Positions 1-29,582 of a stretch of 64,000 nt of DNA are shown piece by piece. Position 1 is the first letter of the stretch. Every line of letters begins with the position of its first letter. The notes below the pieces were generated by a model. That model ran no database searches. It saw nothing but the letters and a program-made list of their open reading frames with translations, and was not told where the DNA came from. Source of the stretch: Mytilus galloprovincialis. Taxonomy: Eukaryota. The translations under genes and the position numbers were made by a program. The stretch is from the NCBI RefSeq assembly GCF_965363235.1, contig NC_134842.1:34040757-34104756 (forward strand), given 5' to 3'.

Positions 1-361
1 TTCATTTGAAAACCTCTATTTTTTGGCATAGGCACATATAAAATTAACTTTTGTCAAATTTTTATAAGTCTCATACATTAAGTATGCTATCATGTACTTT
101 GAATAGCTAATATATTATCCATTGAGACATTAAAAAGTGCAATTTGGTGTTTTTTGGGGATTTTTGAAGCCAAAATTTGAAAGTTGAAATTGTTCTATTT
201 CAACGTCACAATTCAGCAACCAAAGTTGAGATATAAAAAATGCCACATTTTCTATAATATATATCATATGGCTTTGAAACTTTGTAAACTGACTCATAAT
301 ACACTAAGCTTAACTCATGCCAAGTTTTATTGGAATTGGTCAAGTTTTTGGCCCCTAATAG

Positions 362-7741: not shown

Positions 7742-8191
7742 GCCCAAGACCACAATTAATGACCCCGCTTTTCGTTGTTCACGAATATAGTTCCCTTTAA
7801 TTATAGTGTATTTTTTCTTTATTTTTTTTTCTTTCCCTTTCTCATTCATTTCTTAGCTTTTCTGGGGTGGAAATGAAAGAAGAGAGCTGAAATAAACTTC
7901 TGGATGGTTTATTTTAACTGATTTTAATAAGGAAAGAGTGATTAGGCCAGGTGCAAAAAGGTTATATTTACACTTTTCGGAACATCTCTTGACTTGCCTA
8001 TAGGGGTATGGATGTGTATTGGCCAAATTTGTATGATGTAAAGATGCAATTTTTCTGAAAATTGCATATATTTTTGGACTTGTACTGTACATTACACACA
8101 CAAAAAATTAGACAAAAAGAATAGGCAATTTTTTTTTAATGCGACAAAACGTTATAAAGAAATGATAGAGGAATTAATTGTGGTCTCGGGC
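7742..8191. mobile_element. MITE copy (same element)
   Basis: Identical sequence and flanks; long satellite unit. Confidence 0.8.
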
Positions 8192-9489
8192 CTAAGAGGT
8201 GCATTTCAGCAAATTTTGAATTTATACTTTGACAACTTCTCTGAATGATCTATTGGTATTGATTTGTCAAACTATATGAGAAGAAATGATTTCCACTTTT
8301 ATTTGATAGAAATTTGTAAAAAAAGTCACTTTTCAGCTGATATGCCCAAAAAGTAGCTTTTTCACTTTTTTCAATATTTTTGCAAAAGCAGTATCCTTAA
8401 TTTTTCTCTGACATTTTTTTTCTGATATTTATTTGTGTTTGTGGTATTTATTTCATGTGTTTTACTCATTTGTGAACTCTGAACACAAAGAAAAGTGGAT
8501 AAAAGCATTAAAAGAGTGCAAAATGTGCTGTTTTAATAGTCTAGGTCTAACGGTCCGTACGAAGCAAGTGAAATATGAAGTTCTATGCACTTAAAAATTT
8601 TATTTCTTTAAACAGATTGCACTGAATCTATATCAAAAGCACTTATTACTGGTTGTTTAAACTTGTCTGTTTCACAGAATACCTTTATTTTCTTCTGTTG
8701 GATGGCTGGTGGTTAAAATTTTGGCATTTTAAGACTGAAATTTCATGCAGATTTTAAACAGTAAATTGAAAAAACTTTGCATCAGACCATACTGTCTACA
8801 TATATAGTTAAAAGCAACAGTCTTGTAACATCCAGGCTTCATATTTGATCATATCTCAGCAAGGATTTGAGCAAAAAGAAGCATATTTCCATCTCCAATA
8901 TCATTTATATGCAATTTAATATGGAAATATAGGGAACGGCCCAAATTGACAACTTGTTATTTTAAGCTTGACATTGCTTAAGACCATGTAAAACTCATGT
9001 GTTATGCTCTTTGAAACTTATATTTACATCAAAAGAACATTTATGATATGTAAAATGTTTTGTTTTAACTTAACAACTTCAGAAAATTGTTGTAAGTGGA
9101 AAATATTACATTTCATATAAGGCCTCACTTCATTTGAAAACCTCTATTTTTTGGCATAGGCACATATAAAATTAACTTTTGTCAAATTTTTATAAGTCTC
9201 ATACATTAAGTATGCTATCATGTACTTTGAATAGCTAATATATTATCCATTGAGACATTAAAAAGTGCAATTTGGTGTTTTTTGGGGATTTTTGAAGCCA
9301 AAATTTGAAAGTTGAAATTGTTCTATTTCAACGTCACAATTCAGCAACCAAAGTTGAGATATAAAAAATGCCACATTTTCTATAATATATATCATATGGC
9401 TTTGAAACTTTGTAAACTGACTCATAATACACTAAGCTTAACTCATGCCAAGTTTTATTGGAATTGGTCAAGTTTTTGGCCCCTAATAG

Positions 9490-9939
9490 GCCCAAGACCA
9501 CAATTAATGACCCCGCTTTTCGTTGTTCACGAATATAGTTCCCTTTAATTATAGTGTATTTTTTCTTTATTTTTTTTTCTTTCCCTTTCTCATTCATTTC
9601 TTAGCTTTTCTGGGGTGGAAATGAAAGAAGAGAGCTGAAATAAACTTCTGGATGGTTTATTTTAACTGATTTTAATAAGGAAAGAGTGATTAGGCCAGGT
9701 GCAAAAAGGTTATATTTACACTTTTCGGAACATCTCTTGACTTGCCTATAGGGGTATGGATGTGTATTGGCCAAATTTGTATGATGTAAAGATGCAATTT
9801 TTCTGAAAATTGCATATATTTTTGGACTTGTACTGTACATTACACACACAAAAAATTAGACAAAAAGAATAGGCAATTTTTTTTTAATGCGACAAAACGT
9901 TATAAAGAAATGATAGAGGAATTAATTGTGGTCTCGGGC
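9490..9939. mobile_element. MITE copy (same element)
   Basis: Identical sequence and flanks; long satellite unit. Confidence 0.8.
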
Positions 9940-12528
9940 CTAAGAGGTGCATTTCAGCAAATTTTGAATTTATACTTTGACAACTTCTCTGAATGATCTA
10001 TTGGTATTGATTTGTCAAACTATATGAGAAGAAATGATTTCCACTTTTATTTGATAGAAATTTGTAAAAAAAGTCACTTTTCAGCTGATATGCCCAAAAA
10101 GTAGCTTTTTCACTTTTTTCAATATTTTTGCAAAAGCAGTATCCTTAATTTTTCTCTGACATTTTTTTTCTGATATTTATTTGTGTTTGTGGTATTTATT
10201 TCATGTGTTTTACTCATTTGTGAACTCTGAACACAAAGAAAAGTGGATAAAAGCATTAAAAGAGTGCAAAATGTGCTGTTTTAATAGTCTAGGTCTAACG
10301 GTCCGTACGAAGCAAGTGAAATATGAAGTTCTATGCACTTAAAAATTTTATTTCTTTAAACAGATTGCACTGAATCTATATCAAAAGCACTTATTACTGG
10401 TTGTTTAAACTTGTCTGTTTCACAGAATACCTTTATTTTCTTCTGTTGGATGGCTGGTGGTTAAAATTTTGGCATTTTAAGACTGAAATTTCATGCAGAT
10501 TTTAAACAGTAAATTGAAAAAACTTTGCATCAGACCATACTGTCTACATATATAGTTAAAAGCAACAGTCTTGTAACATCCAGGCTTCATATTTGATCAT
10601 ATCTCAGCAAGGATTTGAGCAAAAAGAAGCATATTTCCATCTCCAATATCATTTATATGCAATTTAATATGGAAATATAGGGAACGGCCCAAATTGACAA
10701 CTTGTTATTTTAAGCTTGACATTGCTTAAGACCATGTAAAACTCATGTGTTATGCTCTTTGAAACTTATATTTACATCAAAAGAACATTTATGATATGTA
10801 AAATGTTTTGTTTTAACTTAACAACTTCAGAAAATTGTTGTAAGTGGAAAATATTACATTTCATATAAGGCCTCACTTCATTTGAAAACCTCTATTTTTT
10901 GGCATAGGCACATATAAAATTAACTTTTGTCAAATTTTTATAAGTCTCATACATTAAGTATGCTATCATGTACTTTGAATAGCTAATATATTATCCATTG
11001 AGACATTAAAAAGTGCAATTTGGTGTTTTTTGGGGATTTTTGAAGCCAAAATTTGAAAGTTGAAATTGTTCTATTTCAACGTCACAATTCAGCAACCAAA
11101 GTTGAGATATAAAAAATGCCACATTTTCTATAATATATATCATATGGCTTTGAAACTTTGTAAACTGACTCATAATACACTAAGCTTAACTCATGCCAAG
11201 TTTTATTGGAATTGGTCAAGTTTTTGGCCCCTAAGAGGTGCATTTCAGCAAATTTTGAATTTATACTTTGACAACTTCTCTGAATGATCTATTGGTATTG
11301 ATTTGTCAAACTATATGAGAAGAAATGATTTCCACTTTTATTTGATAGAAATTTGTAAAAAAAGTCACTTTTCAGCTGATATGCCCAAAAAGTAGCTTTT
11401 TCACTTTTTTCAATATTTTTGCAAAAGCAGTATCCTTAATTTTTCTCTGACATTTTTTTTCTGATATTTATTTGTGTTTGTGGTATTTATTTCATGTGTT
11501 TTACTCATTTGTGAACTCTGAACACAAAGAAAAGTGGATAAAAGCATTAAAAGAGTGCAAAATGTGCTGTTTTAATAGTCTAGGTCTAACGGTCCGTACG
11601 AAGCAAGTGAAATATGAAGTTCTATGCACTTAAAAATTTTATTTCTTTAAACAGATTGCACTGAATCTATATCAAAAGCACTTATTACTGGTTGTTTAAA
11701 CTTGTCTGTTTCACAGAATACCTTTATTTTCTTCTGTTGGATGGCTGGTGGTTAAAATTTTGGCATTTTAAGACTGAAATTTCATGCAGATTTTAAACAG
11801 TAAATTGAAAAAACTTTGCATCAGACCATACTGTCTACATATATAGTTAAAAGCAACAGTCTTGTAACATCCAGGCTTCATATTTGATCATATCTCAGCA
11901 AGGATTTGAGCAAAAAGAAGCATATTTCCATCTCCAATATCATTTATATGCAATTTAATATGGAAATATAGGGAACGGCCCAAATTGACAACTTGTTATT
12001 TTAAGCTTGACATTGCTTAAGACCATGTAAAACTCATGTGTTATGCTCTTTGAAACTTATATTTACATCAAAAGAACATTTATGATATGTAAAATGTTTT
12101 GTTTTAACTTAACAACTTCAGAAAATTGTTGTAAGTGGAAAATATTACATTTCATATAAGGCCTCACTTCATTTGAAAACCTCTATTTTTTGGCATAGGC
12201 ACATATAAAATTAACTTTTGTCAAATTTTTATAAGTCTCATACATTAAGTATGCTATCATGTACTTTGAATAGCTAATATATTATCCATTGAGACATTAA
12301 AAAGTGCAATTTGGTGTTTTTTGGGGATTTTTGAAGCCAAAATTTGAAAGTTGAAATTGTTCTATTTCAACGTCACAATTCAGCAACCAAAGTTGAGATA
12401 TAAAAAATGCCACATTTTCTATAATATATATCATATGGCTTTGAAACTTTGTAAACTGACTCATAATACACTAAGCTTAACTCATGCCAAGTTTTATTGG
12501 AATTGGTCAAGTTTTTGGCCCCTAATAG

Positions 12529-12978
12529 GCCCAAGACCACAATTAATGACCCCGCTTTTCGTTGTTCACGAATATAGTTCCCTTTAATTATAGTGTATTT
12601 TTTCTTTATTTTTTTTTCTTTCCCTTTCTCATTCATTTCTTAGCTTTTCTGGGGTGGAAATGAAAGAAGAGAGCTGAAATAAACTTCTGGATGGTTTATT
12701 TTAACTGATTTTAATAAGGAAAGAGTGATTAGGCCAGGTGCAAAAAGGTTATATTTACACTTTTCGGAACATCTCTTGACTTGCCTATAGGGGTATGGAT
12801 GTGTATTGGCCAAATTTGTATGATGTAAAGATGCAATTTTTCTGAAAATTGCATATATTTTTGGACTTGTACTGTACATTACACACACAAAAAATTAGAC
12901 AAAAAGAATAGGCAATTTTTTTTTAATGCGACAAAACGTTATAAAGAAATGATAGAGGAATTAATTGTGGTCTCGGGC
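12529..12978. mobile_element. MITE copy (same element)
   Basis: Identical sequence and flanks; long satellite unit. Confidence 0.8.
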
Positions 12979-15567
12979 CTAAGAGGTGCATTTCAGCAAA
13001 TTTTGAATTTATACTTTGACAACTTCTCTGAATGATCTATTGGTATTGATTTGTCAAACTATATGAGAAGAAATGATTTCCACTTTTATTTGATAGAAAT
13101 TTGTAAAAAAAGTCACTTTTCAGCTGATATGCCCAAAAAGTAGCTTTTTCACTTTTTTCAATATTTTTGCAAAAGCAGTATCCTTAATTTTTCTCTGACA
13201 TTTTTTTTCTGATATTTATTTGTGTTTGTGGTATTTATTTCATGTGTTTTACTCATTTGTGAACTCTGAACACAAAGAAAAGTGGATAAAAGCATTAAAA
13301 GAGTGCAAAATGTGCTGTTTTAATAGTCTAGGTCTAACGGTCCGTACGAAGCAAGTGAAATATGAAGTTCTATGCACTTAAAAATTTTATTTCTTTAAAC
13401 AGATTGCACTGAATCTATATCAAAAGCACTTATTACTGGTTGTTTAAACTTGTCTGTTTCACAGAATACCTTTATTTTCTTCTGTTGGATGGCTGGTGGT
13501 TAAAATTTTGGCATTTTAAGACTGAAATTTCATGCAGATTTTAAACAGTAAATTGAAAAAACTTTGCATCAGACCATACTGTCTACATATATAGTTAAAA
13601 GCAACAGTCTTGTAACATCCAGGCTTCATATTTGATCATATCTCAGCAAGGATTTGAGCAAAAAGAAGCATATTTCCATCTCCAATATCATTTATATGCA
13701 ATTTAATATGGAAATATAGGGAACGGCCCAAATTGACAACTTGTTATTTTAAGCTTGACATTGCTTAAGACCATGTAAAACTCATGTGTTATGCTCTTTG
13801 AAACTTATATTTACATCAAAAGAACATTTATGATATGTAAAATGTTTTGTTTTAACTTAACAACTTCAGAAAATTGTTGTAAGTGGAAAATATTACATTT
13901 CATATAAGGCCTCACTTCATTTGAAAACCTCTATTTTTTGGCATAGGCACATATAAAATTAACTTTTGTCAAATTTTTATAAGTCTCATACATTAAGTAT
14001 GCTATCATGTACTTTGAATAGCTAATATATTATCCATTGAGACATTAAAAAGTGCAATTTGGTGTTTTTTGGGGATTTTTGAAGCCAAAATTTGAAAGTT
14101 GAAATTGTTCTATTTCAACGTCACAATTCAGCAACCAAAGTTGAGATATAAAAAATGCCACATTTTCTATAATATATATCATATGGCTTTGAAACTTTGT
14201 AAACTGACTCATAATACACTAAGCTTAACTCATGCCAAGTTTTATTGGAATTGGTCAAGTTTTTGGCCCCTAATAGGTGCATTTCAGCAAATTTTGAATT
14301 TATACTTTGACAACTTCTCTGAATGATCTATTGGTATTGATTTGTCAAACTATATGAGAAGAAATGATTTCCACTTTTATTTGATAGAAATTTGTAAAAA
14401 AAGTCACTTTTCAGCTGATATGCCCAAAAAGTAGCTTTTTCACTTTTTTCAATATTTTTGCAAAAGCAGTATCCTTAATTTTTCTCTGACATTTTTTTTC
14501 TGATATTTATTTGTGTTTGTGGTATTTATTTCATGTGTTTTACTCATTTGTGAACTCTGAACACAAAGAAAAGTGGATAAAAGCATTAAAAGAGTGCAAA
14601 ATGTGCTGTTTTAATAGTCTAGGTCTAACGGTCCGTACGAAGCAAGTGAAATATGAAGTTCTATGCACTTAAAAATTTTATTTCTTTAAACAGATTGCAC
14701 TGAATCTATATCAAAAGCACTTATTACTGGTTGTTTAAACTTGTCTGTTTCACAGAATACCTTTATTTTCTTCTGTTGGATGGCTGGTGGTTAAAATTTT
14801 GGCATTTTAAGACTGAAATTTCATGCAGATTTTAAACAGTAAATTGAAAAAACTTTGCATCAGACCATACTGTCTACATATATAGTTAAAAGCAACAGTC
14901 TTGTAACATCCAGGCTTCATATTTGATCATATCTCAGCAAGGATTTGAGCAAAAAGAAGCATATTTCCATCTCCAATATCATTTATATGCAATTTAATAT
15001 GGAAATATAGGGAACGGCCCAAATTGACAACTTGTTATTTTAAGCTTGACATTGCTTAAGACCATGTAAAACTCATGTGTTATGCTCTTTGAAACTTATA
15101 TTTACATCAAAAGAACATTTATGATATGTAAAATGTTTTGTTTTAACTTAACAACTTCAGAAAATTGTTGTAAGTGGAAAATATTACATTTCATATAAGG
15201 CCTCACTTCATTTGAAAACCTCTATTTTTTGGCATAGGCACATATAAAATTAACTTTTGTCAAATTTTTATAAGTCTCATACATTAAGTATGCTATCATG
15301 TACTTTGAATAGCTAATATATTATCCATTGAGACATTAAAAAGTGCAATTTGGTGTTTTTTGGGGATTTTTGAAGCCAAAATTTGAAAGTTGAAATTGTT
15401 CTATTTCAACGTCACAATTCAGCAACCAAAGTTGAGATATAAAAAATGCCACATTTTCTATAATATATATCATATGGCTTTGAAACTTTGTAAACTGACT
15501 CATAATACACTAAGCTTAACTCATGCCAAGTTTTATTGGAATTGGTCAAGTTTTTGGCCCCTAATAG

Positions 15568-16017
15568 GCCCAAGACCACAATTAATGACCCCGCTTTTCG
15601 TTGTTCACGAATATAGTTCCCTTTAATTATAGTGTATTTTTTCTTTATTTTTTTTTCTTTCCCTTTCTCATTCATTTCTTAGCTTTTCTGGGGTGGAAAT
15701 GAAAGAAGAGAGCTGAAATAAACTTCTGGATGGTTTATTTTAACTGATTTTAATAAGGAAAGAGTGATTAGGCCAGGTGCAAAAAGGTTATATTTACACT
15801 TTTCGGAACATCTCTTGACTTGCCTATAGGGGTATGGATGTGTATTGGCCAAATTTGTATGATGTAAAGATGCAATTTTTCTGAAAATTGCATATATTTT
15901 TGGACTTGTACTGTACATTACACACACAAAAAATTAGACAAAAAGAATAGGCAATTTTTTTTTAATGCGACAAAACGTTATAAAGAAATGATAGAGGAAT
16001 TAATTGTGGTCTCGGGC
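15568..16017. mobile_element. MITE copy (same element)
   Basis: Identical sequence and flanks; long satellite unit. Confidence 0.8.
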
Positions 16018-18606
16018 CTAAGAGGTGCATTTCAGCAAATTTTGAATTTATACTTTGACAACTTCTCTGAATGATCTATTGGTATTGATTTGTCAAACTA
16101 TATGAGAAGAAATGATTTCCACTTTTATTTGATAGAAATTTGTAAAAAAAGTCACTTTTCAGCTGATATGCCCAAAAAGTAGCTTTTTCACTTTTTTCAA
16201 TATTTTTGCAAAAGCAGTATCCTTAATTTTTCTCTGACATTTTTTTTCTGATATTTATTTGTGTTTGTGGTATTTATTTCATGTGTTTTACTCATTTGTG
16301 AACTCTGAACACAAAGAAAAGTGGATAAAAGCATTAAAAGAGTGCAAAATGTGCTGTTTTAATAGTCTAGGTCTAACGGTCCGTACGAAGCAAGTGAAAT
16401 ATGAAGTTCTATGCACTTAAAAATTTTATTTCTTTAAACAGATTGCACTGAATCTATATCAAAAGCACTTATTACTGGTTGTTTAAACTTGTCTGTTTCA
16501 CAGAATACCTTTATTTTCTTCTGTTGGATGGCTGGTGGTTAAAATTTTGGCATTTTAAGACTGAAATTTCATGCAGATTTTAAACAGTAAATTGAAAAAA
16601 CTTTGCATCAGACCATACTGTCTACATATATAGTTAAAAGCAACAGTCTTGTAACATCCAGGCTTCATATTTGATCATATCTCAGCAAGGATTTGAGCAA
16701 AAAGAAGCATATTTCCATCTCCAATATCATTTATATGCAATTTAATATGGAAATATAGGGAACGGCCCAAATTGACAACTTGTTATTTTAAGCTTGACAT
16801 TGCTTAAGACCATGTAAAACTCATGTGTTATGCTCTTTGAAACTTATATTTACATCAAAAGAACATTTATGATATGTAAAATGTTTTGTTTTAACTTAAC
16901 AACTTCAGAAAATTGTTGTAAGTGGAAAATATTACATTTCATATAAGGCCTCACTTCATTTGAAAACCTCTATTTTTTGGCATAGGCACATATAAAATTA
17001 ACTTTTGTCAAATTTTTATAAGTCTCATACATTAAGTATGCTATCATGTACTTTGAATAGCTAATATATTATCCATTGAGACATTAAAAAGTGCAATTTG
17101 GTGTTTTTTGGGGATTTTTGAAGCCAAAATTTGAAAGTTGAAATTGTTCTATTTCAACGTCACAATTCAGCAACCAAAGTTGAGATATAAAAAATGCCAC
17201 ATTTTCTATAATATATATCATATGGCTTTGAAACTTTGTAAACTGACTCATAATACACTAAGCTTAACTCATGCCAAGTTTTATTGGAATTGGTCAAGTT
17301 TTTGGCCCCTAATAGGTGCATTTCAGCAAATTTTGAATTTATACTTTGACAACTTCTCTGAATGATCTATTGGTATTGATTTGTCAAACTATATGAGAAG
17401 AAATGATTTCCACTTTTATTTGATAGAAATTTGTAAAAAAAGCCACTTTTCAGCTGATATGCCCAAAAAGTAGCTTTTTCACTTTTTTCAATATTTTTGC
17501 AAAAGCAGTATCCTTAATTTTTCTCTGACATTTTTTTTCTGATATTTATTTGTGTTTGTGGTATTTATTTCATGTGTTTTACTCATTTGTGAACTCTGAA
17601 CACAAAGAAAAGTGGATAAAAGCATTAAAAGAGTGCAAAATGTGCTGTTTTAATAGTCTAGGTCTAACGGTCCGTACGAAGCAAGTGAAATATGAAGTTC
17701 TATGCACTTAAAAATTTTATTTCTTTAAACAGATTGCACTGAATCTATATCAAAAGCACTTATTACTGGTTGTTTAAACTTGTCTGTTTCACAGAATACC
17801 TTTATTTTCTTCTGTTGGATGGCTGGTGGTTAAAATTTTGGCATTTTAAGACTGAAATTTCATGCAGATTTTAAACAGTAAATTGAAAAAACTTTGCATC
17901 AGACCATACTGTCTACATATATAGTTAAAAGCAACAGTCTTGTAACATCCAGGCTTCATATTTGATCATATCTCAGCAAGGATTTGAGCAAAAAGAAGCA
18001 TATTTCCATCTCCAATATCATTTATATGCAATTTAATATGGAAATATAGGGAACGGCCCAAATTGACAACTTGTTATTTTAAGCTTGACATTGCTTAAGA
18101 CCATGTAAAACTCATGTGTTATGCTCTTTGAAACTTATATTTACATCAAAAGAACATTTATGATATGTAAAATGTTTTGTTTTAACTTAACAACTTCAGA
18201 AAATTGTTGTAAGTGGAAAATATTACATTTCATATAAGGCCTCACTTCATTTGAAAACCTCTATTTTTTGGCATAGGCACATATAAAATTAACTTTTGTC
18301 AAATTTTTATAAGTCTCATACATTAAGTATGCTATCATGTACTTTGAATAGCTAATATATTATCCATTGAGACATTAAAAAGTGCAATTTGGTGTTTTTT
18401 GGGGATTTTTGAAGCCAAAATTTGAAAGTTGAAATTGTTCTATTTCAACGTCACAATTCAGCAACCAAAGTTGAGATATAAAAAATGCCACATTTTCTAT
18501 AATATATATCATATGGCTTTGAAACTTTGTAAACTGACTCATAATACACTAAGCTTAACTCATGCCAAGTTTTATTGGAATTGGTCAAGTTTTTGGCCCC
18601 TAATAG

Positions 18607-19056
18607 GCCCAAGACCACAATTAATGACCCCGCTTTTCGTTGTTCACGAATATAGTTCCCTTTAATTATAGTGTATTTTTTCTTTATTTTTTTTTCTTTC
18701 CCTTTCTCATTCATTTCTTAGCTTTTCTGGGGTGGAAATGAAAGAAGAGAGCTGAAATAAACTTCTGGATGGTTTATTTTAACTGATTTTAATAAGGAAA
18801 GAGTGATTAGGCCAGGTGCAAAAAGGTTATATTTACACTTTTCGGAACATCTCTTGACTTGCCTATAGGGGTATGGATGTGTATTGGCCAAATTTGTATG
18901 ATGTAAAGATGCAATTTTTCTGAAAATTGCATATATTTTTGGACTTGTACTGTACATTACACACACAAAAAATTAGACAAAAAGAATAGGCAATTTTTTT
19001 TTAATGCGACAAAACGTTATAAAGAAATGATAGAGGAATTAATTGTGGTCTCGGGC
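18607..19056. mobile_element. MITE copy (same element)
   Basis: Identical sequence and flanks; long satellite unit. Confidence 0.8.
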
Positions 19057-20354
19057 CTAAGAGGTGCATTTCAGCAAATTTTGAATTTATACTTTGACAA
19101 CTTCTCTGAATGATCTATTGGTATTGATTTGTCAAACTATATGAGAAGAAATGATTTCCACTTTTATTTGATAGAAATTTGTAAAAAAAGTCACTTTTCA
19201 GCTGATATGCCCAAAAAGTAGCTTTTTCACTTTTTTCAATATTTTTGCAAAAGCAGTATCCTTAATTTTTCTCTGACATTTTTTTTCTGATATTTATTTG
19301 TGTTTGTGGTATTTATTTCATGTGTTTTACTCATTTGTGAACTCTGAACACAAAGAAAAGTGGATAAAAGCATTAAAAGAGTGCAAAATGTGCTGTTTTA
19401 ATAGTCTAGGTCTAACGGTCCGTACGAAGCAAGTGAAATATGAAGTTCTATGCACTTAAAAATTTTATTTCTTTAAACAGATTGCACTGAATCTATATCA
19501 AAAGCACTTATTACTGGTTGTTTAAACTTGTCTGTTTCACAGAATACCTTTATTTTCTTCTGTTGGATGGCTGGTGGTTAAAATTTTGGCATTTTAAGAC
19601 TGAAATTTCATGCAGATTTTAAACAGTAAATTGAAAAAACTTTGCATCAGACCATACTGTCTACATATATAGTTAAAAGCAACAGTCTTGTAACATCCAG
19701 GCTTCATATTTGATCATATCTCAGCAAGGATTTGAGCAAAAAGAAGCATATTTCCATCTCCAATATCATTTATATGCAATTTAATATGGAAATATAGGGA
19801 ACGGCCCAAATTGACAACTTGTTATTTTAAGCTTGACATTGCTTAAGACCATGTAAAACTCATGTGTTATGCTCTTTGAAACTTATATTTACATCAAAAG
19901 AACATTTATGATATGTAAAATGTTTTGTTTTAACTTAACAACTTCAGAAAATTGTTGTAAGTGGAAAATATTACATTTCATATAAGGCCTCACTTCATTT
20001 GAAAACCTCTATTTTTTGGCATAGGCACATATAAAATTAACTTTTGTCAAATTTTTATAAGTCTCATACATTAAGTATGCTATCATGTACTTTGAATAGC
20101 TAATATATTATCCATTGAGACATTAAAAAGTGCAATTTGGTGTTTTTTGGGGATTTTTGAAGCCAAAATTTGAAAGTTGAAATTGTTCTATTTCAACGTC
20201 ACAATTCAGCAACCAAAGTTGAGATATAAAAAATGCCACATTTTCTATAATATATATCATATGGCTTTGAAACTTTGTAAACTGACTCATAATACACTAA
20301 GCTTAACTCATGCCAAGTTTTATTGGAATTGGTCAAGTTTTTGGCCCCTAATAG

Positions 20355-20804
20355 GCCCAAGACCACAATTAATGACCCCGCTTTTCGTTGTTCACGAATA
20401 TAGTTCCCTTTAATTATAGTGTATTTTTTCTTTATTTTTTTTTCTTTCCCTTTCTCATTCATTTCTTAGCTTTTCTGGGGTGGAAATGAAAGAAGAGAGC
20501 TGAAATAAACTTCTGGATGGTTTATTTTAACTGATTTTAATAAGGAAAGAGTGATTAGGCCAGGTGCAAAAAGGTTATATTTACACTTTTCGGAACATCT
20601 CTTGACTTGCCTATAGGGGTATGGATGTGTATTGGCCAAATTTGTATGATGTAAAGATGCAATTTTTCTGAAAATTGCATATATTTTTGGACTTGTACTG
20701 TACATTACACACACAAAAAATTAGACAAAAAGAATAGGCAATTTTTTTTTAATGCGACAAAACGTTATAAAGAAATGATAGAGGAATTAATTGTGGTCTC
20801 GGGC
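20355..20804. mobile_element. MITE copy (same element)
   Basis: Identical sequence and flanks; long satellite unit. Confidence 0.8.
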
Positions 20805-23393
20805 CTAAGAGGTGCATTTCAGCAAATTTTGAATTTATACTTTGACAACTTCTCTGAATGATCTATTGGTATTGATTTGTCAAACTATATGAGAAGAAAT
20901 GATTTCCACTTTTATTTGATAGAAATTTGTAAAAAAAGTCACTTTTCAGCTGATATGCCCAAAAAGTAGCTTTTTCACTTTTTTCAATATTTTTGCAAAA
21001 GCAGTATCCTTAATTTTTCTCTGACATTTTTTTTCTGATATTTATTTGTGTTTGTGGTATTTATTTCATGTGTTTTACTCATTTGTGAACTCTGAACACA
21101 AAGAAAAGTGGATAAAAGCATTAAAAGAGTGCAAAATGTGCTGTTTTAATAGTCTAGGTCTAACGGTCCGTACGAAGCAAGTGAAATATGAAGTTCTATG
21201 CACTTAAAAATTTTATTTCTTTAAACAGATTGCACTGAATCTATATCAAAAGCACTTATTACTGGTTGTTTAAACTTGTCTGTTTCACAGAATACCTTTA
21301 TTTTCTTCTGTTGGATGGCTGGTGGTTAAAATTTTGGCATTTTAAGACTGAAATTTCATGCAGATTTTAAACAGTAAATTGAAAAAACTTTGCATCAGAC
21401 CATACTGTCTACATATATAGTTAAAAGCAACAGTCTTGTAACATCCAGGCTTCATATTTGATCATATCTCAGCAAGGATTTGAGCAAAAAGAAGCATATT
21501 TCCATCTCCAATATCATTTATATGCAATTTAATATGGAAATATAGGGAACGGCCCAAATTGACAACTTGTTATTTTAAGCTTGACATTGCTTAAGACCAT
21601 GTAAAACTCATGTGTTATGCTCTTTGAAACTTATATTTACATCAAAAGAACATTTATGATATGTAAAATGTTTTGTTTTAACTTAACAACTTCAGAAAAT
21701 TGTTGTAAGTGGAAAATATTACATTTCATATAAGGCCTCACTTCATTTGAAAACCTCTATTTTTTGGCATAGGCACATATAAAATTAACTTTTGTCAAAT
21801 TTTTATAAGTCTCATACATTAAGTATGCTATCATGTACTTTGAATAGCTAATATATTATCCATTGAGACATTAAAAAGTGCAATTTGGTGTTTTTTGGGG
21901 ATTTTTGAAGCCAAAATTTGAAAGTTGAAATTGTTCTATTTCAACGTCACAATTCAGCAACCAAAGTTGAGATATAAAAAATGCCACATTTTCTATAATA
22001 TATATCATATGGCTTTGAAACTTTGTAAACTGACTCATAATACACTAAGCTTAACTCATGCCAAGTTTTATTGGAATTGGTCAAGTTTTTGGCCCCTAAT
22101 AGGTGCATTTCAGCAAATTTTGAATTTATACTTTGACAACTTCTCTGAATGATCTATTGGTATTGATTTGTCAAACTATATGAGAAGAAATGATTTCCAC
22201 TTTTATTTGATAGAAATTTGTAAAAAAAGTCACTTTTCAGCTGATATGCCCAAAAAGTAGCTTTTTCACTTTTTTCAATATTTTTGCAAAAGCAGTATCC
22301 TTAACTTTTCTCTGACATTTTTTTTCTGATATTTATTTGTGTTTGTGGTATTTATTTCATGTGTTTTACTCATTTGTGAACTCTGAACACAAAGAAAAGT
22401 GGATAAAAGCATTAAAAGAGTGCAAAATGTGCTGTTTTAATAGTCTAGGTCTAACGGTCCGTACGAAGCAAGTGAAATATGAAGTTCTATGCACTTAAAA
22501 ATTTTATTTCTTTAAACAGATTGCACTGAATCTATATCAAAAGCACTTATTACTGGTTGTTTAAACTTGTCTGTTTCACAGAATACCTTTATTTTCTTCT
22601 GTTGGATGGCTGGTGGTTAAAATTTTGGCATTTTAAGACTGAAATTTCATGCAGATTTTAAACAGTAAATTGAAAAAACTTTGCATCAGACCATACTGTC
22701 TACATATATAGTTAAAAGCAACAGTCTTGTAACATCCAGGCTTCATATTTGATCATATCTCAGCAAGGATTTGAGCAAAAAGAAGCATATTTCCATCTCC
22801 AATATCATTTATATGCAATTTAATATGGAAATATAGGGAACGGCCCAAATTGACAACTTGTTATTTTAAGCTTGACATTGCTTAAGACCATGTAAAACTC
22901 ATGTGTTATGCTCTTTGAAACTTATATTTACATCAAAAGAACATTTATGATATGTAAAATGTTTTGTTTTAACTTAACAACTTCAGAAAATTGTTGTAAG
23001 TGGAAAATATTACATTTCATATAAGGCCTCACTTCATTTGAAAACCTCTATTTTTTGGCATAGGCACATATAAAATTAACTTTTGTCAAATTTTTATAAG
23101 TCTCATACATTAAGTATGCTATCATGTACTTTGAATAGCTAATATATTATCCATTGAGACATTAAAAAGTGCAATTTGGTGTTTTTTGGGGATTTTTGAA
23201 GCCAAAATTTGAAAGTTGAAATTGTTCTATTTCAACGTCACAATTCAGCAACCAAAGTTGAGATATAAAAAATGCCACATTTTCTATAATATATATCATA
23301 TGGCTTTGAAACTTTGTAAACTGACTCATAATACACTAAGCTTAACTCATGCCAAGTTTTATTGGAATTGGTCAAGTTTTTGGCCCCTAATAG

Positions 23394-23843
23394 GCCCAAG
23401 ACCACAATTAATGACCCCGCTTTTCGTTGTTCACGAATATAGTTCCCTTTAATTATAGTGTATTTTTTCTTTATTTTTTTTTCTTTCCCTTTCTCATTCA
23501 TTTCTTAGCTTTTCTGGGGTGGAAATGAAAGAAGAGAGCTGAAATAAACTTCTGGATGGTTTATTTTAACTGATTTTAATAAGGAAAGAGTGATTAGGCC
23601 AGGTGCAAAAAGGTTATATTTACACTTTTCGGAACATCTCTTGACTTGCCTATAGGGGTATGGATGTGTATTGGCCAAATTTGTATGATGTAAAGATGCA
23701 ATTTTTCTGAAAATTGCATATATTTTTGGACTTGTACTGTACATTACACACACAAAAAATTAGACAAAAAGAATAGGCAATTTTTTTTTAATGCGACAAA
23801 ACGTTATAAAGAAATGATAGAGGAATTAATTGTGGTCTCGGGC
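23394..23843. mobile_element. MITE copy (same element)
   Basis: Identical sequence and flanks; long satellite unit. Confidence 0.8.
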
Positions 23844-26432
23844 CTAAGAGGTGCATTTCAGCAAATTTTGAATTTATACTTTGACAACTTCTCTGAATGA
23901 TCTATTGGTATTGATTTGTCAAACTATATGAGAAGAAATGATTTCCACTTTTATTTGATAGAAATTTGTAAAAAAAGTCACTTTTCAGCTGATATGCCCA
24001 AAAAGTAGCTTTTTCACTTTTTTCAATATTTTTGCAAAAGCAGTATCCTTAATTTTTCTCTGACATTTTTTTTCTGATATTTATTTGTGTTTGTGGTATT
24101 TATTTCATGTGTTTTACTCATTTGTGAACTCTGAACACAAAGAAAAGTGGATAAAAGCATTAAAAGAGTGCAAAATGTGCTGTTTTAATAGTCTAGGTCT
24201 AACGGTCCGTACGAAGCAAGTGAAATATGAAGTTCTATGCACTTAAAAATTTTATTTCTTTAAACAGATTGCACTGAATCTATATCAAAAGCACTTATTA
24301 CTGGTTGTTTAAACTTGTCTGTTTCACAGAATACCTTTATTTTCTTCTGTTGGATGGCTGGTGGTTAAAATTTTGGCATTTTAAGACTGAAATTTCATGC
24401 AGATTTTAAACAGTAAATTGAAAAAACTTTGCATCAGACCATACTGTCTACATATATAGTTAAAAGCAACAGTCTTGTAACATCCAGGCTTCATATTTGA
24501 TCATATCTCAGCAAGGATTTGAGCAAAAAGAAGCATATTTCCATCTCCAATATCATTTATATGCAATTTAATATGGAAATATAGGGAACGGCCCAAATTG
24601 ACAACTTGTTATTTTAAGCTTGACATTGCTTAAGACCATGTAAAACTCATGTGTTATGCTCTTTGAAACTTATATTTACATCAAAAGAACATTTATGATA
24701 TGTAAAATGTTTTGTTTTAACTTAACAACTTCAGAAAATTGTTGTAAGTGGAAAATATTACATTTCATATAAGGCCTCACTTCATTTGAAAACCTCTATT
24801 TTTTGGCATAGGCACATATAAAATTAACTTTTGTCAAATTTTTATAAGTCTCATACATTAAGTATGCTATCATGTACTTTGAATAGCTAATATATTATCC
24901 ATTGAGACATTAAAAAGTGCAATTTGGTGTTTTTTGGGGATTTTTGAAGCCAAAATTTGAAAGTTGAAATTGTTCTATTTCAACGTCACAATTCAGCAAC
25001 CAAAGTTGAGATATAAAAAATGCCACATTTTCTATAATATATATCATATGGCTTTGAAACTTTGTAAACTGACTCATAATACACTAAGCTTAACTCATGC
25101 CAAGTTTTATTGGAATTGGTCAAGTTTTTGGCCCCTAATAGGTGCATTTCAGCAAATTTTGAATTTATACTTTGACAACTTCTCTGAATGATCTATTGGT
25201 ATTGATTTGTCAAACTATATGAGAAGAAATGATTTCCACTTTTATTTGATAGAAATTTGTAAAAAAAGCCACTTTTCAGCTGATATGCCCAAAAAGTAGC
25301 TTTTTCACTTTTTTCAATATTTTTGCAAAAGCAGTATCCTTAATTTTTCTCTGACATTTTTTTTCTGATATTTATTTGTGTTTGTGGTATTTATTTCATG
25401 TGTTTTACTCATTTGTGAACTCTGAACACAAAGAAAAGTGGATAAAAGCATTAAAAGAGTGCAAAATGTGCTGTTTTAATAGTCTAGGTCTAACGGTCCG
25501 TACGAAGCAAGTGAAATATGAAGTTCTATGCACTTAAAAATTTTATTTCTTTAAACAGATTGCACTGAATCTATATCAAAAGCACTTATTACTGGTTGTT
25601 TAAACTTGTCTGTTTCACAGAATACCTTTATTTTCTTCTGTTGGATGGCTGGTGGTTAAAATTTTGGCATTTTAAGACTGAAATTTCATGCAGATTTTAA
25701 ACAGTAAATTGAAAAAACTTTGCATCAGACCATACTGTCTACATATATAGTTAAAAGCAACAGTCTTGTAACATCCAGGCTTCATATTTGATCATATCTC
25801 AGCAAGGATTTGAGCAAAAAGAAGCATATTTCCATCTCCAATATCATTTATATGCAATTTAATATGGAAATATAGGGAACGGCCCAAATTGACAACTTGT
25901 TATTTTAAGCTTGACATTGCTTAAGACCATGTAAAACTCATGTGTTATGCTCTTTGAAACTTATATTTACATCAAAAGAACATTTATGATATGTAAAATG
26001 TTTTGTTTTAACTTAACAACTTCAGAAAATTGTTGTAAGTGGAAAATATTACATTTCATATAAGGCCTCACTTCATTTGAAAACCTCTATTTTTTGGCAT
26101 AGGCACATATAAAATTAACTTTTGTCAAATTTTTATAAGTCTCATACATTAAGTATGCTATCATGTACTTTGAATAGCTAATATATTATCCATTGAGACA
26201 TTAAAAAGTGCAATTTGGTGTTTTTTGGGGATTTTTGAAGCCAAAATTTGAAAGTTGAAATTGTTCTATTTCAACGTCACAATTCAGCAACCAAAGTTGA
26301 GATATAAAAAATGCCACATTTTCTATAATATATATCATATGGCTTTGAAACTTTGTAAACTGACTCATAATACACTAAGCTTAACTCATGCCAAGTTTTA
26401 TTGGAATTGGTCAAGTTTTTGGCCCCTAATAG

Positions 26433-26882
26433 GCCCAAGACCACAATTAATGACCCCGCTTTTCGTTGTTCACGAATATAGTTCCCTTTAATTATAGTGT
26501 ATTTTTTCTTTATTTTTTTTTCTTTCCCTTTCTCATTCATTTCTTAGCTTTTCTGGGGTGGAAATGAAAGAAGAGAGCTGAAATAAACTTCTGGATGGTT
26601 TATTTTAACTGATTTTAATAAGGAAAGAGTGATTAGGCCAGGTGCAAAAAGGTTATATTTACACTTTTCGGAACATCTCTTGACTTGCCTATAGGGGTAT
26701 GGATGTGTATTGGCCAAATTTGTATGATGTAAAGATGCAATTTTTCTGAAAATTGCATATATTTTTGGACTTGTACTGTACATTACACACACAAAAAATT
26801 AGACAAAAAGAATAGGCAATTTTTTTTTAATGCGACAAAACGTTATAAAGAAATGATAGAGGAATTAATTGTGGTCTCGGGC
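26433..26882. mobile_element. MITE copy (same element)
   Basis: Identical sequence and flanks; long satellite unit. Confidence 0.8.
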
Positions 26883-28180
26883 CTAAGAGGTGCATTTCAG
26901 CAAATTTTGAATTTATACTTTGACAACTTCTCTGAATGATCTATTGGTATTGATTTGTCAAACTATATGAGAAGAAATGATTTCCACTTTTATTTGATAG
27001 AAATTTGTAAAAAAAGTCACTTTTCAGCTGATATGCCCAAAAAGTAGCTTTTTCACTTTTTTCAATATTTTTGCAAAAGCAGTATCCTTAATTTTTCTCT
27101 GACATTTTTTTTCTGATATTTATTTGTGTTTGTGGTATTTATTTCATGTGTTTTACTCATTTGTGAACTCTGAACACAAAGAAAAGTGGATAAAAGCATT
27201 AAAAGAGTGCAAAATGTGCTGTTTTAATAGTCTAGGTCTAACGGTCCGTACGAAGCAAGTGAAATATGAAGTTCTATGCACTTAAAAATTTTATTTCTTT
27301 AAACAGATTGCACTGAATCTATATCAAAAGCACTTATTACTGGTTGTTTAAACTTGTCTGTTTCACAGAATACCTTTATTTTCTTCTGTTGGATGGCTGG
27401 TGGTTAAAATTTTGGCATTTTAAGACTGAAATTTCATGCAGATTTTAAACAGTAAATTGAAAAAACTTTGCATCAGACCATACTGTCTACATATATAGTT
27501 AAAAGCAACAGTCTTGTAACATCCAGGCTTCATATTTGATCATATCTCAGCAAGGATTTGAGCAAAAAGAAGCATATTTCCATCTCCAATATCATTTATA
27601 TGCAATTTAATATGGAAATATAGGGAACGGCCCAAATTGACAACTTGTTATTTTAAGCTTGACATTGCTTAAGACCATGTAAAACTCATGTGTTATGCTC
27701 TTTGAAACTTATATTTACATCAAAAGAACATTTATGATATGTAAAATGTTTTGTTTTAACTTAACAACTTCAGAAAATTGTTGTAAGTGGAAAATATTAC
27801 ATTTCATATAAGGCCTCACTTCATTTGAAAACCTCTATTTTTTGGCATAGGCACATATAAAATTAACTTTTGTCAAATTTTTATAAGTCTCATACATTAA
27901 GTATGCTATCATGTACTTTGAATAGCTAATATATTATCCATTGAGACATTAAAAAGTGCAATTTGGTGTTTTTTGGGGATTTTTGAAGCCAAAATTTGAA
28001 AGTTGAAATTGTTCTATTTCAACGTCACAATTCAGCAACCAAAGTTGAGATATAAAAAATGCCACATTTTCTATAATATATATCATATGGCTTTGAAACT
28101 TTGTAAACTGACTCATAATACACTAAGCTTAACTCATGCCAAGTTTTATTGGAATTGGTCAAGTTTTTGGCCCCTAATAG

Positions 28181-28630
28181 GCCCAAGACCACAATTAATG
28201 ACCCCGCTTTTCGTTGTTCACGAATATAGTTCCCTTTAATTATAGTGTATTTTTTCTTTATTTTTTTTTCTTTCCCTTTCTCATTCATTTCTTAGCTTTT
28301 CTGGGGTGGAAATGAAAGAAGAGAGCTGAAATAAACTTCTGGATGGTTTATTTTAACTGATTTTAATAAGGAAAGAGTGATTAGGCCAGGTGCAAAAAGG
28401 TTATATTTACACTTTTCGGAACATCTCTTGACTTGCCTATAGGGGTATGGATGTGTATTGGCCAAATTTGTATGATGTAAAGATGCAATTTTTCTGAAAA
28501 TTGCATATATTTTTGGACTTGTACTGTACATTACACACACACAAAATTAGACAAAAAGATTAGGCAAATTTTTTTTAATGCGACAAAACGTTATAAAGAA
28601 ATGATAGAGGAATTAATTGTGGTCTCGGGC
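28181..28630. mobile_element. Last MITE copy. The satellite array ends immediately after its 3' terminal repeat (ggtctcgggcc then tatagg and unique sequence).
   Basis: Homology to the satellite monomer stops at about 28632. This last unit is slightly diverged (acacacacacaaaattagacaaaaagattagg). Confidence 0.8.
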
Positions 28631-28632
28631 CT

Positions 28633-29075
28633 ATAGGTGGCACGGTAGTATTTGCATTCCAGAATTTAGGTTGCTCTTTTGTGTACCCTACTTAGGTAAA
28701 TGTATCTAAACAGTGTGATTGGACAAAAAATACAGTATCAACTGAACATACTTTCCCAAACTGAGGGATGAATCAGGTGTAGAAAAATATGAAATAATTT
28801 TACATACAGATGAAAATGAATTTTTGAGAATTTTTTTAAATTTTGTATTCACTGCACCATAAAATACCTAAAAGTACTAGTGGCCTTAGGTTTTTAAAAA
28901 TAGCAAAAAAAGTAAACGGTCATGATACATATTCAAATTCATTTCTGAATAGTAAAATGAAAGTACTTCAGTTAACTGTGAATGTAGAATTTTTTGCAGT
29001 GTTAGAAAGTGGTGAAAATTCTAAAAAGGCTATCATTATCCCTTATGGGCCAGGAAATACTACCGTGCCACCTAT
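28633..29075. repeat. Pair of 22-23-bp inverted repeats, ATAGGTGGCACGGTAGTATTT (28633-28655) and its reverse complement (29053-29075), about 400 bp apart. An inner 11-13-bp inverted repeat GCCGGCGAGCG / CGCTCGCCGGC lies at 29085-29167.
   Basis: Reverse-complement identity read directly. Sits directly next to the satellite end. Confidence 0.6.
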
Positions 29076-29582
29076 AAATGTGCCGGCGAGCGAGATCGTT
29101 TGTGTTTCACTTTTCAAAGATAAAAGGATCGTTCTGGCTCCATATGCCTTTCCGCTCGCCGGCACAGAAACTTTTTCTCAGATCCTAGAGAGCCATTACG
29201 TAGCCAGCATAAGAGACACGTTAAATACAAGATTCAATGAACCTATCACCATAGGGGATAAAACTCTGATAAAATGTTATGTTTCATCTAGCTCAAACGG
29301 GGAAAAAATTGAAATGAATACATCTCTCAAGGCTATAGATGCTGTTAAAATGTTTGGTGCATATGTAAGCTTTGAGCTGACTGACAAGTTTGATTTATTT
29401 GTTTTAAATTTTGTTTTAAGAATTGTTTTCAATTAATAAAACATTTGAATGTATCAGAGCTTTTATTTAATATTAAGATTCACTAAATTTGATATTGAAA
29501 AGATCAACCAATTTCACTGTAATGGTTCTTCCTTGGTACAGGTCTTACAGTAGGCGTTCCTTACTTGCTTCAAGCAAGAGTT

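What the first reader, a model, noticed from the sequence alone, without database searches (positions are those of the whole stretch)
28181..29075. The satellite array ends exactly at a MITE 3' terminus and abuts a 400-bp inverted-repeat (foldback) structure
The last unit is truncated precisely after ggtctcgggcc, the end of the MITE's 3' terminal inverted repeat. Unique sequence follows, beginning with a 22-bp repeat (28633-28655) whose inverted partner is at 29053-29075. An array boundary at a transposon terminus suggests the array was seeded or expanded by a transposition or end-joining event at the MITE end. The alternative is that the boundary is a breakpoint repaired at the foldback.
Basis: partly seen in the sequence, partly recalled or inferred. 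Interest (0 to 1): 0.6.

Follow-up and report, generated by a model that had tools for sequence, protein, structure and literature searches.

The report
Transposon multimer ending at its terminal repeat
The 28-kb "satellite" is most likely a mussel Mutator-like DNA transposon whose two modules have been multiplied in tandem, and it stops at the "MITE" end because that 452-bp piece is the transposon's own terminal repeat, not a passenger inserted into a satellite.

Summary
A very homogeneous array of at least 28.6 kb ends at 28631, the last base of a 452-bp TIR-bounded element (A). Only "TA" is shared after that. Next comes a 445-bp element (B, 28632-29076) with perfect 22-bp terminal inverted repeats.

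The interpretation changes. In Mytilus edulis and M. coruscus genome loci, A occurs as two direct copies flanking a 3.95-kb segment (T). T encodes a Mutator-like transposase and a His-Me-finger endonuclease-like ORF. Each A-T-A unit stops exactly at the outer A termini, next to unrelated DNA. The window's 1291-bp monomer (M) shares only its ends with T, as a non-autonomous partner would. One contig reads A-M-A-T.

The array is therefore best read as (A-M)n-A, a multimerised non-autonomous composite transposon that ends in A by construction. Monomers lacking A are probably secondary losses.

The same layout, a transposase between direct repeats of about 400-450 bp, recurs in a distant M. edulis lineage and in Pinctada.

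The last 90 bp of the terminal A carry three private substitutions. That fits a real, old array edge, not an assembly artefact.

B is not a foldback. No other copy of B was found, and nothing shows that it made the boundary.

The array's left end, which would settle the matter, lies outside the window.

The parts
1..28631 (+). Tandem array (A-M)n-A. It runs off the left edge of the window. There are 18 full M modules (1291 bp, non-coding) and 11 A modules (452 bp). Units are more than 99.8% identical.
   Evidence: k-mer spacing peaks at 1748, 1291 and 3039 bp. Unit table and variant list. No RNA genes, tRNAs or long ORFs.
28180..28631 (+). Terminal A copy, the last module of the array. It is complete to its 3' TIR and has 3 private substitutions, at A positions 363, 381 and 389.
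   Evidence: Two of the three private bases are derived relative to all outgroup A copies. All three lie in the last 90 bp (P = 0.008).
28180..28199 (+). 5' TIR of the terminal A copy (GGCCCAAGACCACAATTAAT).
28612..28631 (+). 3' TIR of the terminal A copy (ATTAATTGTGGTCTCGGGCC). Its last base is the last unambiguous base of the array.
28173..28181 (+). Left 9-mer CCTAATAGG. It overlaps the first two TIR bases and is the TSD-like repeat found on the 5' side of every A copy.
28630..28638 (+). Right 9-mer of the terminal copy, CCTATAGGT (CC plus the first 7 nt of B). It takes the place of the internal CCTAAGAGG and is the predicted target-site duplication of the whole array.
   Evidence: Its likeness to the internal 9-mers is only marginal.
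26884..28179 (+). Last M module, identical to the array consensus. Its first ~47 bp and last ~150 bp are homologous to the ends of the transposase-bearing segment T in Mytilus loci. Its interior is unrelated to T.
   Evidence: It is 96.3% identical over its full length to the M copy in contig L010.
26432..26883 (+). Internal A copy, one of 10 identical copies. The others start at 361, 3410, 7741, 9489, 12528, 15567, 18606, 20354 and 23393, each 452 bp.
25132..25140 (+). Example of an A-less M|M junction with a single 9-mer, CCTAATAGG. Such junctions occur just before 2118, 5159, 6450, 11237, 14276, 17315, 22102 and 25141. The one before 11237 has the other variant, CCTAAGAGG.
28632..29076 (.). 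Element B: 445 bp, non-coding, with perfect 22-nt TIRs that begin and end in TA. It is MITE-like and a single copy in all data examined. It is a neighbour or target of the array, not part of it.
   Evidence: No other copy found.
28632..28653 (+). Left TIR of B (TATAGGTGGCACGGTAGTATTT).
29055..29076 (+). Right TIR of B (AAATACTACCGTGCCACCTATA).
29079..29166 (.). 88-bp hairpin with perfect 14-nt arms (TGTGCCGGCGAGCG / CGCTCGCCGGCACA), 2 bp after B. It is not related to the array.

Best explanation
The array is a multimerised, non-autonomous member of a Mutator-like (MULE) transposon family of mytilid mussels.

The family has an unusual layout. The autonomous element is A-T-A. T is a 3.95-kb internal segment encoding a Mutator-like DDE transposase and a His-Me-finger endonuclease-like protein. 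It is bracketed by two direct copies of the 452-bp module A. Each A has its own 20-bp TIRs. The outermost bases of the element are therefore the 5' TIR of the left A and the 3' TIR of the right A.

M (1291 bp) stands in for T in non-autonomous copies. It keeps only T's terminal ~47 bp and ~150 bp.

Shown: the window holds (A-M)n-A.

Inferred:
- The transposase acts on the two outward-facing A termini and moves everything between them as a composite.
- The number of A-M units grew by unequal exchange between the repeated modules. Transposase-driven alternative transposition is another possible route.
- A-less M|M junctions arose by loss of A between its flanking 9-mers, through excision or microhomology deletion.

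On this reading the array ends at the A 3' terminus because that is the right end of the transposon. The sequence to the right, starting CCTATAGGT in or at the left TIR of B, is the insertion target. B is an unrelated MITE-like neighbour.
For: 1. The spacer between two outward-facing A ends in L007 encodes a Mutator transposase (PF20700, E = 5e-65) and a PF05551 ORF.

2. Three Mytilus genome loci with different flanks (L008 M. edulis; L009 and L014 M. coruscus) each show A-T-A. Two of them show full direct A copies ending exactly at the TIR, next to unrelated DNA; the right-hand A of L014 is truncated.

3. L010 reads A-M-A-T, and its M is 96.3% identical to the window's M.

4. M and T are homologous only at their ends: about 150 bp on the left of A (P < 0.001) and about 40 bp on the right (P = 0.001-0.007).

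5. The 9-mers between A and M or T are the same in all loci. A plus its 9-mers is therefore ancestral and not a recent insertion into a satellite.

6. One A-less junction carries the right-hand 9-mer variant. That is expected if A was lost by exchange between the two 9-mers.

7. The layout recurs in diverged lineages: L012 (transposase 55% identical) and L013 from Pinctada (44%), where the repeat unit also has its own short TIRs.

8. The two A copies of one element are 97-99.8% alike, against 84-96% between elements.

9. The L009 composite is flanked by a 6-bp direct repeat, CCTTTT (P = 0.012).

10. The private substitutions of the terminal A lie only in its last 90 bp. This is the edge effect expected for an old, real array end.
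Against: - The left end of the array is outside the window. The key prediction, an A 5' terminus there with a matching target-site duplication, is untested.
- The TSD length is not settled. The filled/empty comparison allows 5 to 9 bp, because the TIR ends (GG/CC) overlap the repeat. The L009 repeat is only 6 bp and does not fit any one TSD length that also fits the window. L008 shows none.
- No transposase remnant is present in the window, and no transposition has been observed.
- Eight of 19 sites lack A. Unequal exchange between A copies alone does not explain this; a second process is needed.
- No solo A copies were seen, so A's independent mobility rests only on the in-array filled/empty sites.
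- All comparative loci come from other species or assemblies. The species of the window is not identified.
Confidence: 0.68

Rival explanations
1. M is an ordinary satellite. A is a MITE that inserted once into a monomer and spread with a 3039-bp higher-order repeat. The array edge was made by a transposase-induced break, a one-ended transposition or an end-joining event at the A 3' end, which deleted or replaced the rest of the array.
For: Filled and empty sites inside the array look like a clean insertion with a 5-9-bp duplication. The boundary is exact to within 2 bp. Adjacent deletions at transposon ends are a known outcome of aberrant transposition (general knowledge, not tested here).
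Against: The unit A plus 9-mers plus M/T ends is shared with transposase-bearing elements in other Mytilus genomes. A is therefore not a late passenger. The T/G difference between the two 9-mers is shared across loci, so the 'TSD' is old. Elements with a single internal segment also end in A next to unrelated DNA, so no extra event is needed.
Confidence: 0.15
2. The boundary was created by element B. Either B inserted at the TA next to A and a B-end-mediated deletion removed the rest of the array, or a break was repaired by microhomology between B's TIR (TATAGGTGGCA) and the normal post-A sequence (TAATAGGTGCA).
For: B starts at the first base after A. TA is present on both sides of B. B's first 11 nt resemble the empty-site sequence (10 matches with 2 gaps; P = 0.01 unconditioned).
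Against: Once a TA start is allowed for, the similarity is P = 0.04-0.12, and the sequence after B is no better. The sequence after B does not continue the monomer. This model needs two precise events at one point. B's mobility is unproven, since no second copy was found anywhere.
Confidence: 0.08
3. Assembly artefact or coincidence. The array is collapsed or mis-joined at a repeat end, or the boundary falls at the A terminus by chance.
For: Units more than 99.8% identical are hard to assemble. Other haplotypes could not be examined.
Against: The terminal A copy has three private substitutions clustered in its last 90 bp (P = 0.008), two of them derived. A collapse or mis-join of identical units would not produce that. 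The chance of a boundary within about 3 bp of an A end is roughly 0.3%. The same 'ends in A' rule holds at independent loci in two other genomes.
Confidence: 0.05

Closest known systems
Mutator-like elements (MULE / MuDR superfamily), including the 'MULE-Mollusca' and 'MULE-Cg' clades of Dupeyron et al. 2019 (PMC6446971)
   Same: The partner element encodes a Mutator-type DDE transposase (PF20700). A 9-bp duplication fits the filled/empty sites. Autonomous and non-autonomous partners share only their ends. A second ORF accompanies the transposase.
   Different: Typical MULEs have one pair of long TIRs. Here each end is a complete 452-bp module with its own short 20-bp TIRs, and the two end modules are direct repeats. 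Dupeyron et al. list the mollusc clade with TIRs 'None' and TSD 'not indicated', so this layout is not described there.
Plant MULEs with multiple or tandem TIRs (Ferguson and Jiang 2012, PMC3310237)
   Same: MULEs that carry extra copies of their terminal sequence and still transpose with a TSD.
   Different: In plants the extra TIRs lie in tandem at each end, so the ends remain inverted copies of each other. Nearly all of those elements are non-autonomous, and no long arrays are reported.
Compound transposons with directly repeated insertion sequences, and their tandem amplification in bacteria (Tn9/IS1, IS26 units). From my own knowledge; not tested here.
   Same: A short TIR-bounded element in direct orientation at both ends of a passenger segment. 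(IS-X)n-IS arrays start and end with the IS. Mutator transposases are related to the bacterial IS256 family.
   Different: Here the host is a eukaryote. The transposase lies in the passenger segment, not in the end module. The layout is conserved across transposase lineages only 44-55% identical, not an ad hoc composite.
LTR retrotransposon / TRIM tandem arrays, e.g. biv-TRIM in bivalves (PMC6934838)
   Same: Terminal direct repeats around an internal domain. The paper reports canonical elements, solo repeats and tandem arrays. An alternating tandem of repeat and internal domain has the same topology as (A-M)n-A.
   Different: There is no reverse transcriptase and the coding capacity is a DDE transposase. 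A has TIRs and GG...CC ends. Sizes differ (biv-TRIM repeats 202-218 bp, inner domain 77-80 bp). PBS and PPT were not looked for.
Transposon-derived satellites in bivalves and Drosophila: Helentron-borne repeats in Crassostrea (PMC7492417), DTC84 MITE in Donax (PMC3879986), Tetris in D. virilis (PMC4079207). Abstracts only, from the search.
   Same: Tandem arrays that originate from parts of a DNA transposon.
   Different: In those cases short internal repeats (about 150-200 bp) expand. Here whole modules of the element, end module plus internal segment, 1.3-1.7 kb, are multimerised to at least 28 kb.
Maize Ac/Ds macrotransposons and alternative transposition that produces tandem direct duplications. 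From my own knowledge; not tested here.
   Same: Termini of two separate element copies used together. The products are tandem duplications bounded exactly by element ends.
   Different: A different superfamily (hAT). Those are sporadic rearrangements, not a conserved family layout.

Membership tests
Mutator-like element (MULE) superfamily, for the whole A-X-A element | Mutator-type DDE transposase in the autonomous partner | tested here: met
   PF20700 at E = 5e-65 in L007. Intact 663-667-aa ORFs lie between A copies in L007, L008, L010 and L011. None is present in the window, so the window copy is non-autonomous.
Mutator-like element (MULE) superfamily, for the whole A-X-A element | Target-site duplication of 8-11 bp (usually 9) | tested here: inconclusive
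   The filled minus empty difference is 457 bp. It can be read as 448 + 9 (CCTAATAGG / CCTAAGAGG) but equally as 452 + 5. The L009 composite is flanked by a 6-bp repeat (P = 0.012). L008 shows none. The window's left end is not available.
Mutator-like element (MULE) superfamily, for the whole A-X-A element | Terminal inverted repeats, typically long (tens to hundreds of bp) | tested here: not met
   Only 20-bp TIRs, and they bound each A module. The two ends of the element are direct repeats. Non-TIR MULEs are accepted members (PMC6446971), so this does not exclude membership.
MITE (for module A) | Small, non-coding, with TIRs and a TSD | tested here: met
   452 bp, 20-bp TIRs with one mismatch, filled and empty sites inside the array.
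MITE (for module A) | Many dispersed solo copies at unrelated sites | tested here: not met
   Every A copy seen is attached to M or T: 11 in the window and 9 in loci L007-L010 and L014. None was found in the other 35 kb of the window or elsewhere in about 65 kb of Mytilus loci screened with A. The sample is small; a whole-genome census was not possible.
Satellite DNA (for the array) | Long head-to-tail array of non-coding monomers | tested here: met
   At least 28.6 kb, 18 or more units, over 99.8% identity, no genes. Whether there are many arrays per genome, or a heterochromatic location, is not testable here.
Foldback element (for B) | Long inverted repeats that make up most of the element | tested here: not met
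   Only the 22-nt ends are inverted, and the interior does not form a long hairpin.
Tc1/mariner-type (Stowaway-like) MITE (for B) | TA target duplication, TIRs, multiple copies | tested here: inconclusive
   TIRs are perfect. TA lies at both ends but is also part of the palindromic repeat. No second copy was found in the window, the fetched loci, viral contigs or protein-proxy searches.
Compound / composite transposon | Two copies of a TIR-bounded element bracketing a passenger, and the same composite found at several loci | tested here: met
   A-T-A at three different Mytilus loci (L008, L009, L014), with the same internal junctions. An analogous layout occurs in L012 and L013.
LTR retrotransposon / TRIM | Reverse-transcription hallmarks (RT or a related autonomous partner, PBS, PPT, TG...CA repeat ends) | tested here: not met
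   The internal segment encodes a DDE transposase and not an RT. A begins GG and ends CC and has TIRs. PBS and PPT were not searched for.

The most novel reading that the evidence does not exclude
This bivalve Mutator-like clade may move or replicate through an intermediate that regenerates its terminal direct repeats. That could be a circular or rolling-circle form, or a copy-out/paste-in form of one A+X period. Bacterial IS256 relatives of Mutator are, from my own knowledge, known to form circles. If so, A-X-A and long (A-X)n-A concatemers would be direct products of transposition and not of later unequal crossing-over. That would make it a DNA transposon with LTR-like ends that seeds satellite arrays in a single step. 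The accompanying His-Me-finger endonuclease might take part. The evidence neither excludes nor requires this. The near-identity of the two A copies within each element holds across lineages whose transposases are only 44-55% identical. That is the observation pointing this way.
Probability: 0.15. Interest if true: 0.85.

Novelty: new variant of a known kind. Interest (0 to 1): 0.55.

Why it matters
How satellite DNA is born from transposons is an old question with few clean examples. This case offers a readable intermediate. The same modules occur as a single autonomous element (A-T-A), as a mixed tandem (A-M-A-T) and as a homogeneous array of at least 28 kb ((A-M)n-A).

It also suggests that mollusc Mutator-like elements, listed as lacking TIRs, have short TIRs hidden inside ~450-bp terminal direct repeats. 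That layout would mislead standard TIR- and LTR-based annotation tools. Repeat modules could then be called separately as a 'MITE' and a 'satellite'.

For this finding, it means the striking boundary needs no special rearrangement.

Tried and rejected
1. Degraded monomer sequence continuing after B or after the 88-bp hairpin: nothing above shuffles.

2. Microhomology at the junction beyond TA: marginal to non-significant.

3. An RNA gene, tRNA or protein gene as the repeating unit: none.

4. ORF 29077-29436 as a real exon: no Pfam hit and no homologue.

5. Exact-protein look-ups with spurious ORFs of A and of B plus flank, to fetch other assemblies of the locus: not on record.

6. A chimeric pseudo-protein of A, B and flank frames against 5.8 billion proteins: no hit.

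7. Identifying the species from the MVP exon: the best contigs are only 84-87% identical at DNA level, so they come from relatives. The species remains 'a mytilid mussel, probably Mytilus'.

8. Viral-contig scans for the A and B termini: nothing.

9. Treating the L007 spacer as a diverged full-length homologue of M: rejected, only the ends match.

10. Reading T or M as a TIR element with its own ends: no TIRs at the M/T boundaries.

11. PIF/Harbinger (TAA) and Tc1/mariner (TA) readings of A's duplication: neither fits the 457-bp filled/empty difference.

12. biv-TRIM as the same element: rejected on size and structure.

13. A structural homologue of the transposase in the PDB by sequence: none.

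Full report
**1. What is in the window**

Positions 1-28631 form one tandem array that runs off the left edge. The k-mer spacings are 1748, 1291 and 3039 bp. The array has two modules.

- M is 1291 bp and non-coding. It has no Rfam family, no tRNA and only short ORFs.
- A is 452 bp with 20-bp terminal inverted repeats and one mismatch: GGCCCAAGACCACAATTAAT ... ATTAATTGTGGTCTCGGGCC.

A is present at 11 of 19 junctions, in the order F E F E E F F E F E F E F F E F E F F. Units are more than 99.8% identical.

- Filled sites read GGCC CCTAATAGG CCCAAG...CTCGGG CCTAAGAGG TGCATT.
- Empty sites read GGCC CCTAATAGG TGCATT.

The filled and empty sites differ by 457 bp. The TIR ends (GG/CC) overlap the repeat, so the duplication can be read as anything from 5 to 9 bp.

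**2. The boundary**

The last A copy (28180-28631) is complete. After it, internal copies read TAAGAGGTGC and the terminal copy reads TATAGGTGGC. Identity therefore ends at 28631, or at 28633 if the shared TA is counted. Further resemblance is not significant once a TA start is allowed for (P = 0.04-0.12). No monomer sequence is detectable to the right.

The roughly 400 bp between the arms do not form a long hairpin. This 445-bp element (B) is therefore TIR-bounded and MITE-like, not a foldback. No other copy of B was found anywhere I could look.

An 88-bp perfect-stem hairpin (29079-29166) and another inverted-repeat pair (29566-29892) follow. The flank is rich in small inverted-repeat elements.

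**3. The organism**

The right half of the window carries exons of a major vault protein gene on the minus strand, and a hAT transposase ORF. The closest relatives of the element described below are in Mytilus edulis and M. coruscus. The window is therefore from a mytilid mussel. The species itself appears to be absent from the searchable collections: MVP exon DNA is only 84-87% identical to the best contigs.

**4. The turning point**

A scan of metagenome contigs with the A terminus found one contig, L007. It starts with an A 3' end and finishes with an A 5' end, both about 92% identical to the window and in the same orientation. Between them lie 3963 bp. That spacer encodes a 667-aa Mutator-like transposase (PF20700, E = 5e-65) and a 154-aa His-Me-finger endonuclease-like protein (PF05551). 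The bases next to A are the same as in the window: CCTAAGAGG after A and TCTAATAGG before A.

The spacer is homologous to M only at its ends. The match covers about 150 bp before the next A (P < 0.001) and about 40 bp after the previous A (P = 0.001-0.007). The interiors are unrelated. This is the usual relationship between an autonomous DNA transposon and its non-autonomous partner.

**5. Genomic context in real assemblies**

The transposase's homologues led to genome loci.

- In M. edulis (L008) and at two M. coruscus loci (L009, L014), the transposase segment T is bracketed by two direct copies of A.
- The internal 9-mers are the same as in the window.
- In L008 and L009 each composite stops exactly at the outer A termini, next to DNA that differs from locus to locus. 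In L014 only the outer-left end could be read, because its right A copy is truncated.
- Contig L010 reads A-M-A-T, and its M is 96.3% identical to the window's M over the full length. M and T are therefore interchangeable internal segments in one tandem system.
- The two A copies of one element are 99.8% (L009) and 97.1% (L008) identical, against 84-96% between elements.
- The L009 composite is flanked by a 6-bp direct repeat, CCTTTT (P = 0.012). The older L008 copy shows none.

The layout is not peculiar to one family. A distant M. edulis lineage (L012, transposase 55% identical) and Pinctada imbricata (L013, 44%) also have the transposase between direct repeats of 400-455 bp. In Pinctada these repeats again have their own short TIRs of about 20 bp.

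**6. Interpretation**

The element family is A-X-A, with X = T in autonomous copies and X = M in non-autonomous copies. The sequence to the right is the host target. If the duplication is 9 bp, the target 9-mer CCTATAGGT spans the left edge of B.

Three steps are inferred and not shown:
- that the transposase uses the two outer A termini to move the composite;
- that the copy number grew by unequal exchange between modules, or by transposase-driven alternative transposition;
- that A-less junctions are secondary losses.

Two points support the last inference. The T/G difference between the left and right 9-mers is shared across most of the loci, so it is old. And one A-less junction (before 11237) carries the right-hand variant, as expected from exchange between the two 9-mers. 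By my own rough estimate, an independent point mutation to exactly that base has a probability of about 0.001, given the handful of variants in the whole array.

**7. Is the edge real?**

The ten internal A copies are identical. The terminal copy differs at three positions (363, 381, 389), all in its last 90 bp (P = 0.008), and two of them are derived relative to every outgroup copy. Unequal exchange cannot replace the outermost stretch of an array, so an old edge should look like this. A collapsed or mis-joined assembly of identical units should not. Other haplotypes could not be examined.

**8. Comparison with known systems**

By its partner's transposase, the element belongs to the Mutator superfamily. 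It does not have the usual long TIR pair.

- The survey by Dupeyron et al. 2019 lists the mollusc clades with TIRs 'None' or unclear, and TSDs not indicated.
- Plant MULEs with tandem extra TIRs are the nearest described MULE variant, but their ends remain inverted copies of each other.
- In topology the system behaves like bacterial compound transposons with directly repeated insertion sequences (my own knowledge). It also resembles LTR/TRIM elements that form tandems of repeat and internal domain.
- It differs from the bivalve Helentron and MITE-borne satellites, where short internal repeats expand.

My literature search was limited. Repbase could not be consulted, so prior description cannot be excluded.

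**9. Verdict**

The specific model, a passenger MITE in a satellite with a break at the MITE end or a repair at a foldback, is not supported.
- The best explanation has a confidence of about 0.68. Its main weakness is that the array's left end is unseen and the target-site duplication is unresolved.
- Novelty: a new variant of a known kind.

Noticed in passing
window 33661-44820, minus strand: Exons of a major vault protein gene (Pfam Vault, Vault_3 and MVP_shoulder; a coiled-coil cap exon at 33661-34053). The array ends about 4-5 kb beyond the gene's 3' end.
   Followed up: partly
window 49143-50691, minus strand: Two adjacent ORFs (322 and 196 aa) of a hAT-family transposase (Dimer_Tnp_hAT, E = 1e-18). 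This is probably one hAT element with a frameshift, unrelated to the Mutator-like family.
   Followed up: no
window 52421-52661 and 57223-57463; 54619-55751 and 57472-58631: Two copies of a composite repeat block: a 35-bp minisatellite, then 135-bp tandem repeats, then 161-170-bp tandem repeats. The 170-bp consensus contains GGGCCC (an ApaI site) and the motif TTTTTGGCCCCTAAT, which also lies just before every A copy in the array. It may be the classical Mytilus ApaI-type satellite carried inside a mobile element (my recollection, not tested).
   Followed up: no
window 29079-29166: 88-bp hairpin with perfect 14-nt GC-rich arms (TGTGCCGGCGAGCG / CGCTCGCCGGCACA), 2 bp after element B. It lies inside a 119-codon open frame that has no homologues.
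   Followed up: partly
window 29566-29892: Another MITE-like structure with 41-nt arms, 88% complementary, 245 nt apart. It is a single copy in the window.
   Followed up: no
window 30904-30959: A 56-bp stretch 82-84% identical to sequences in the M. edulis (L008:16703-16755) and M. coruscus (L009:7269-7310) loci, outside the A-T-A elements. Probably another dispersed mussel repeat.
   Followed up: no
L007:402-866 (+); L010:2998-3363; L011:2317-2682: A His-Me-finger / homing-endonuclease-like ORF (PF05551, E = 5e-11) sits next to the Mutator-like transposase inside T, on the opposite strand. Its role in this element family is unknown.
   Followed up: partly
window 818-3866: The leftmost units carry the only length variants of the array: an 8-bp insertion (ATAATTTT) in the M unit starting at 818, and single-base insertions in the first three M units. 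Elsewhere the units are almost invariant.
   Followed up: no
L013:3690-4138: In the Pinctada locus, a 449-bp near-palindrome (arms of 142 and 60 nt, 78-87% complementary) lies about 700 bp upstream of the left direct repeat of the Mutator-like element. This is a true foldback-type structure, unlike B.
   Followed up: no
window 60750-61168: Tandem repeats of 117-119 bp (about 2.5 copies, 75-80% identical), of unknown affiliation.
   Followed up: no
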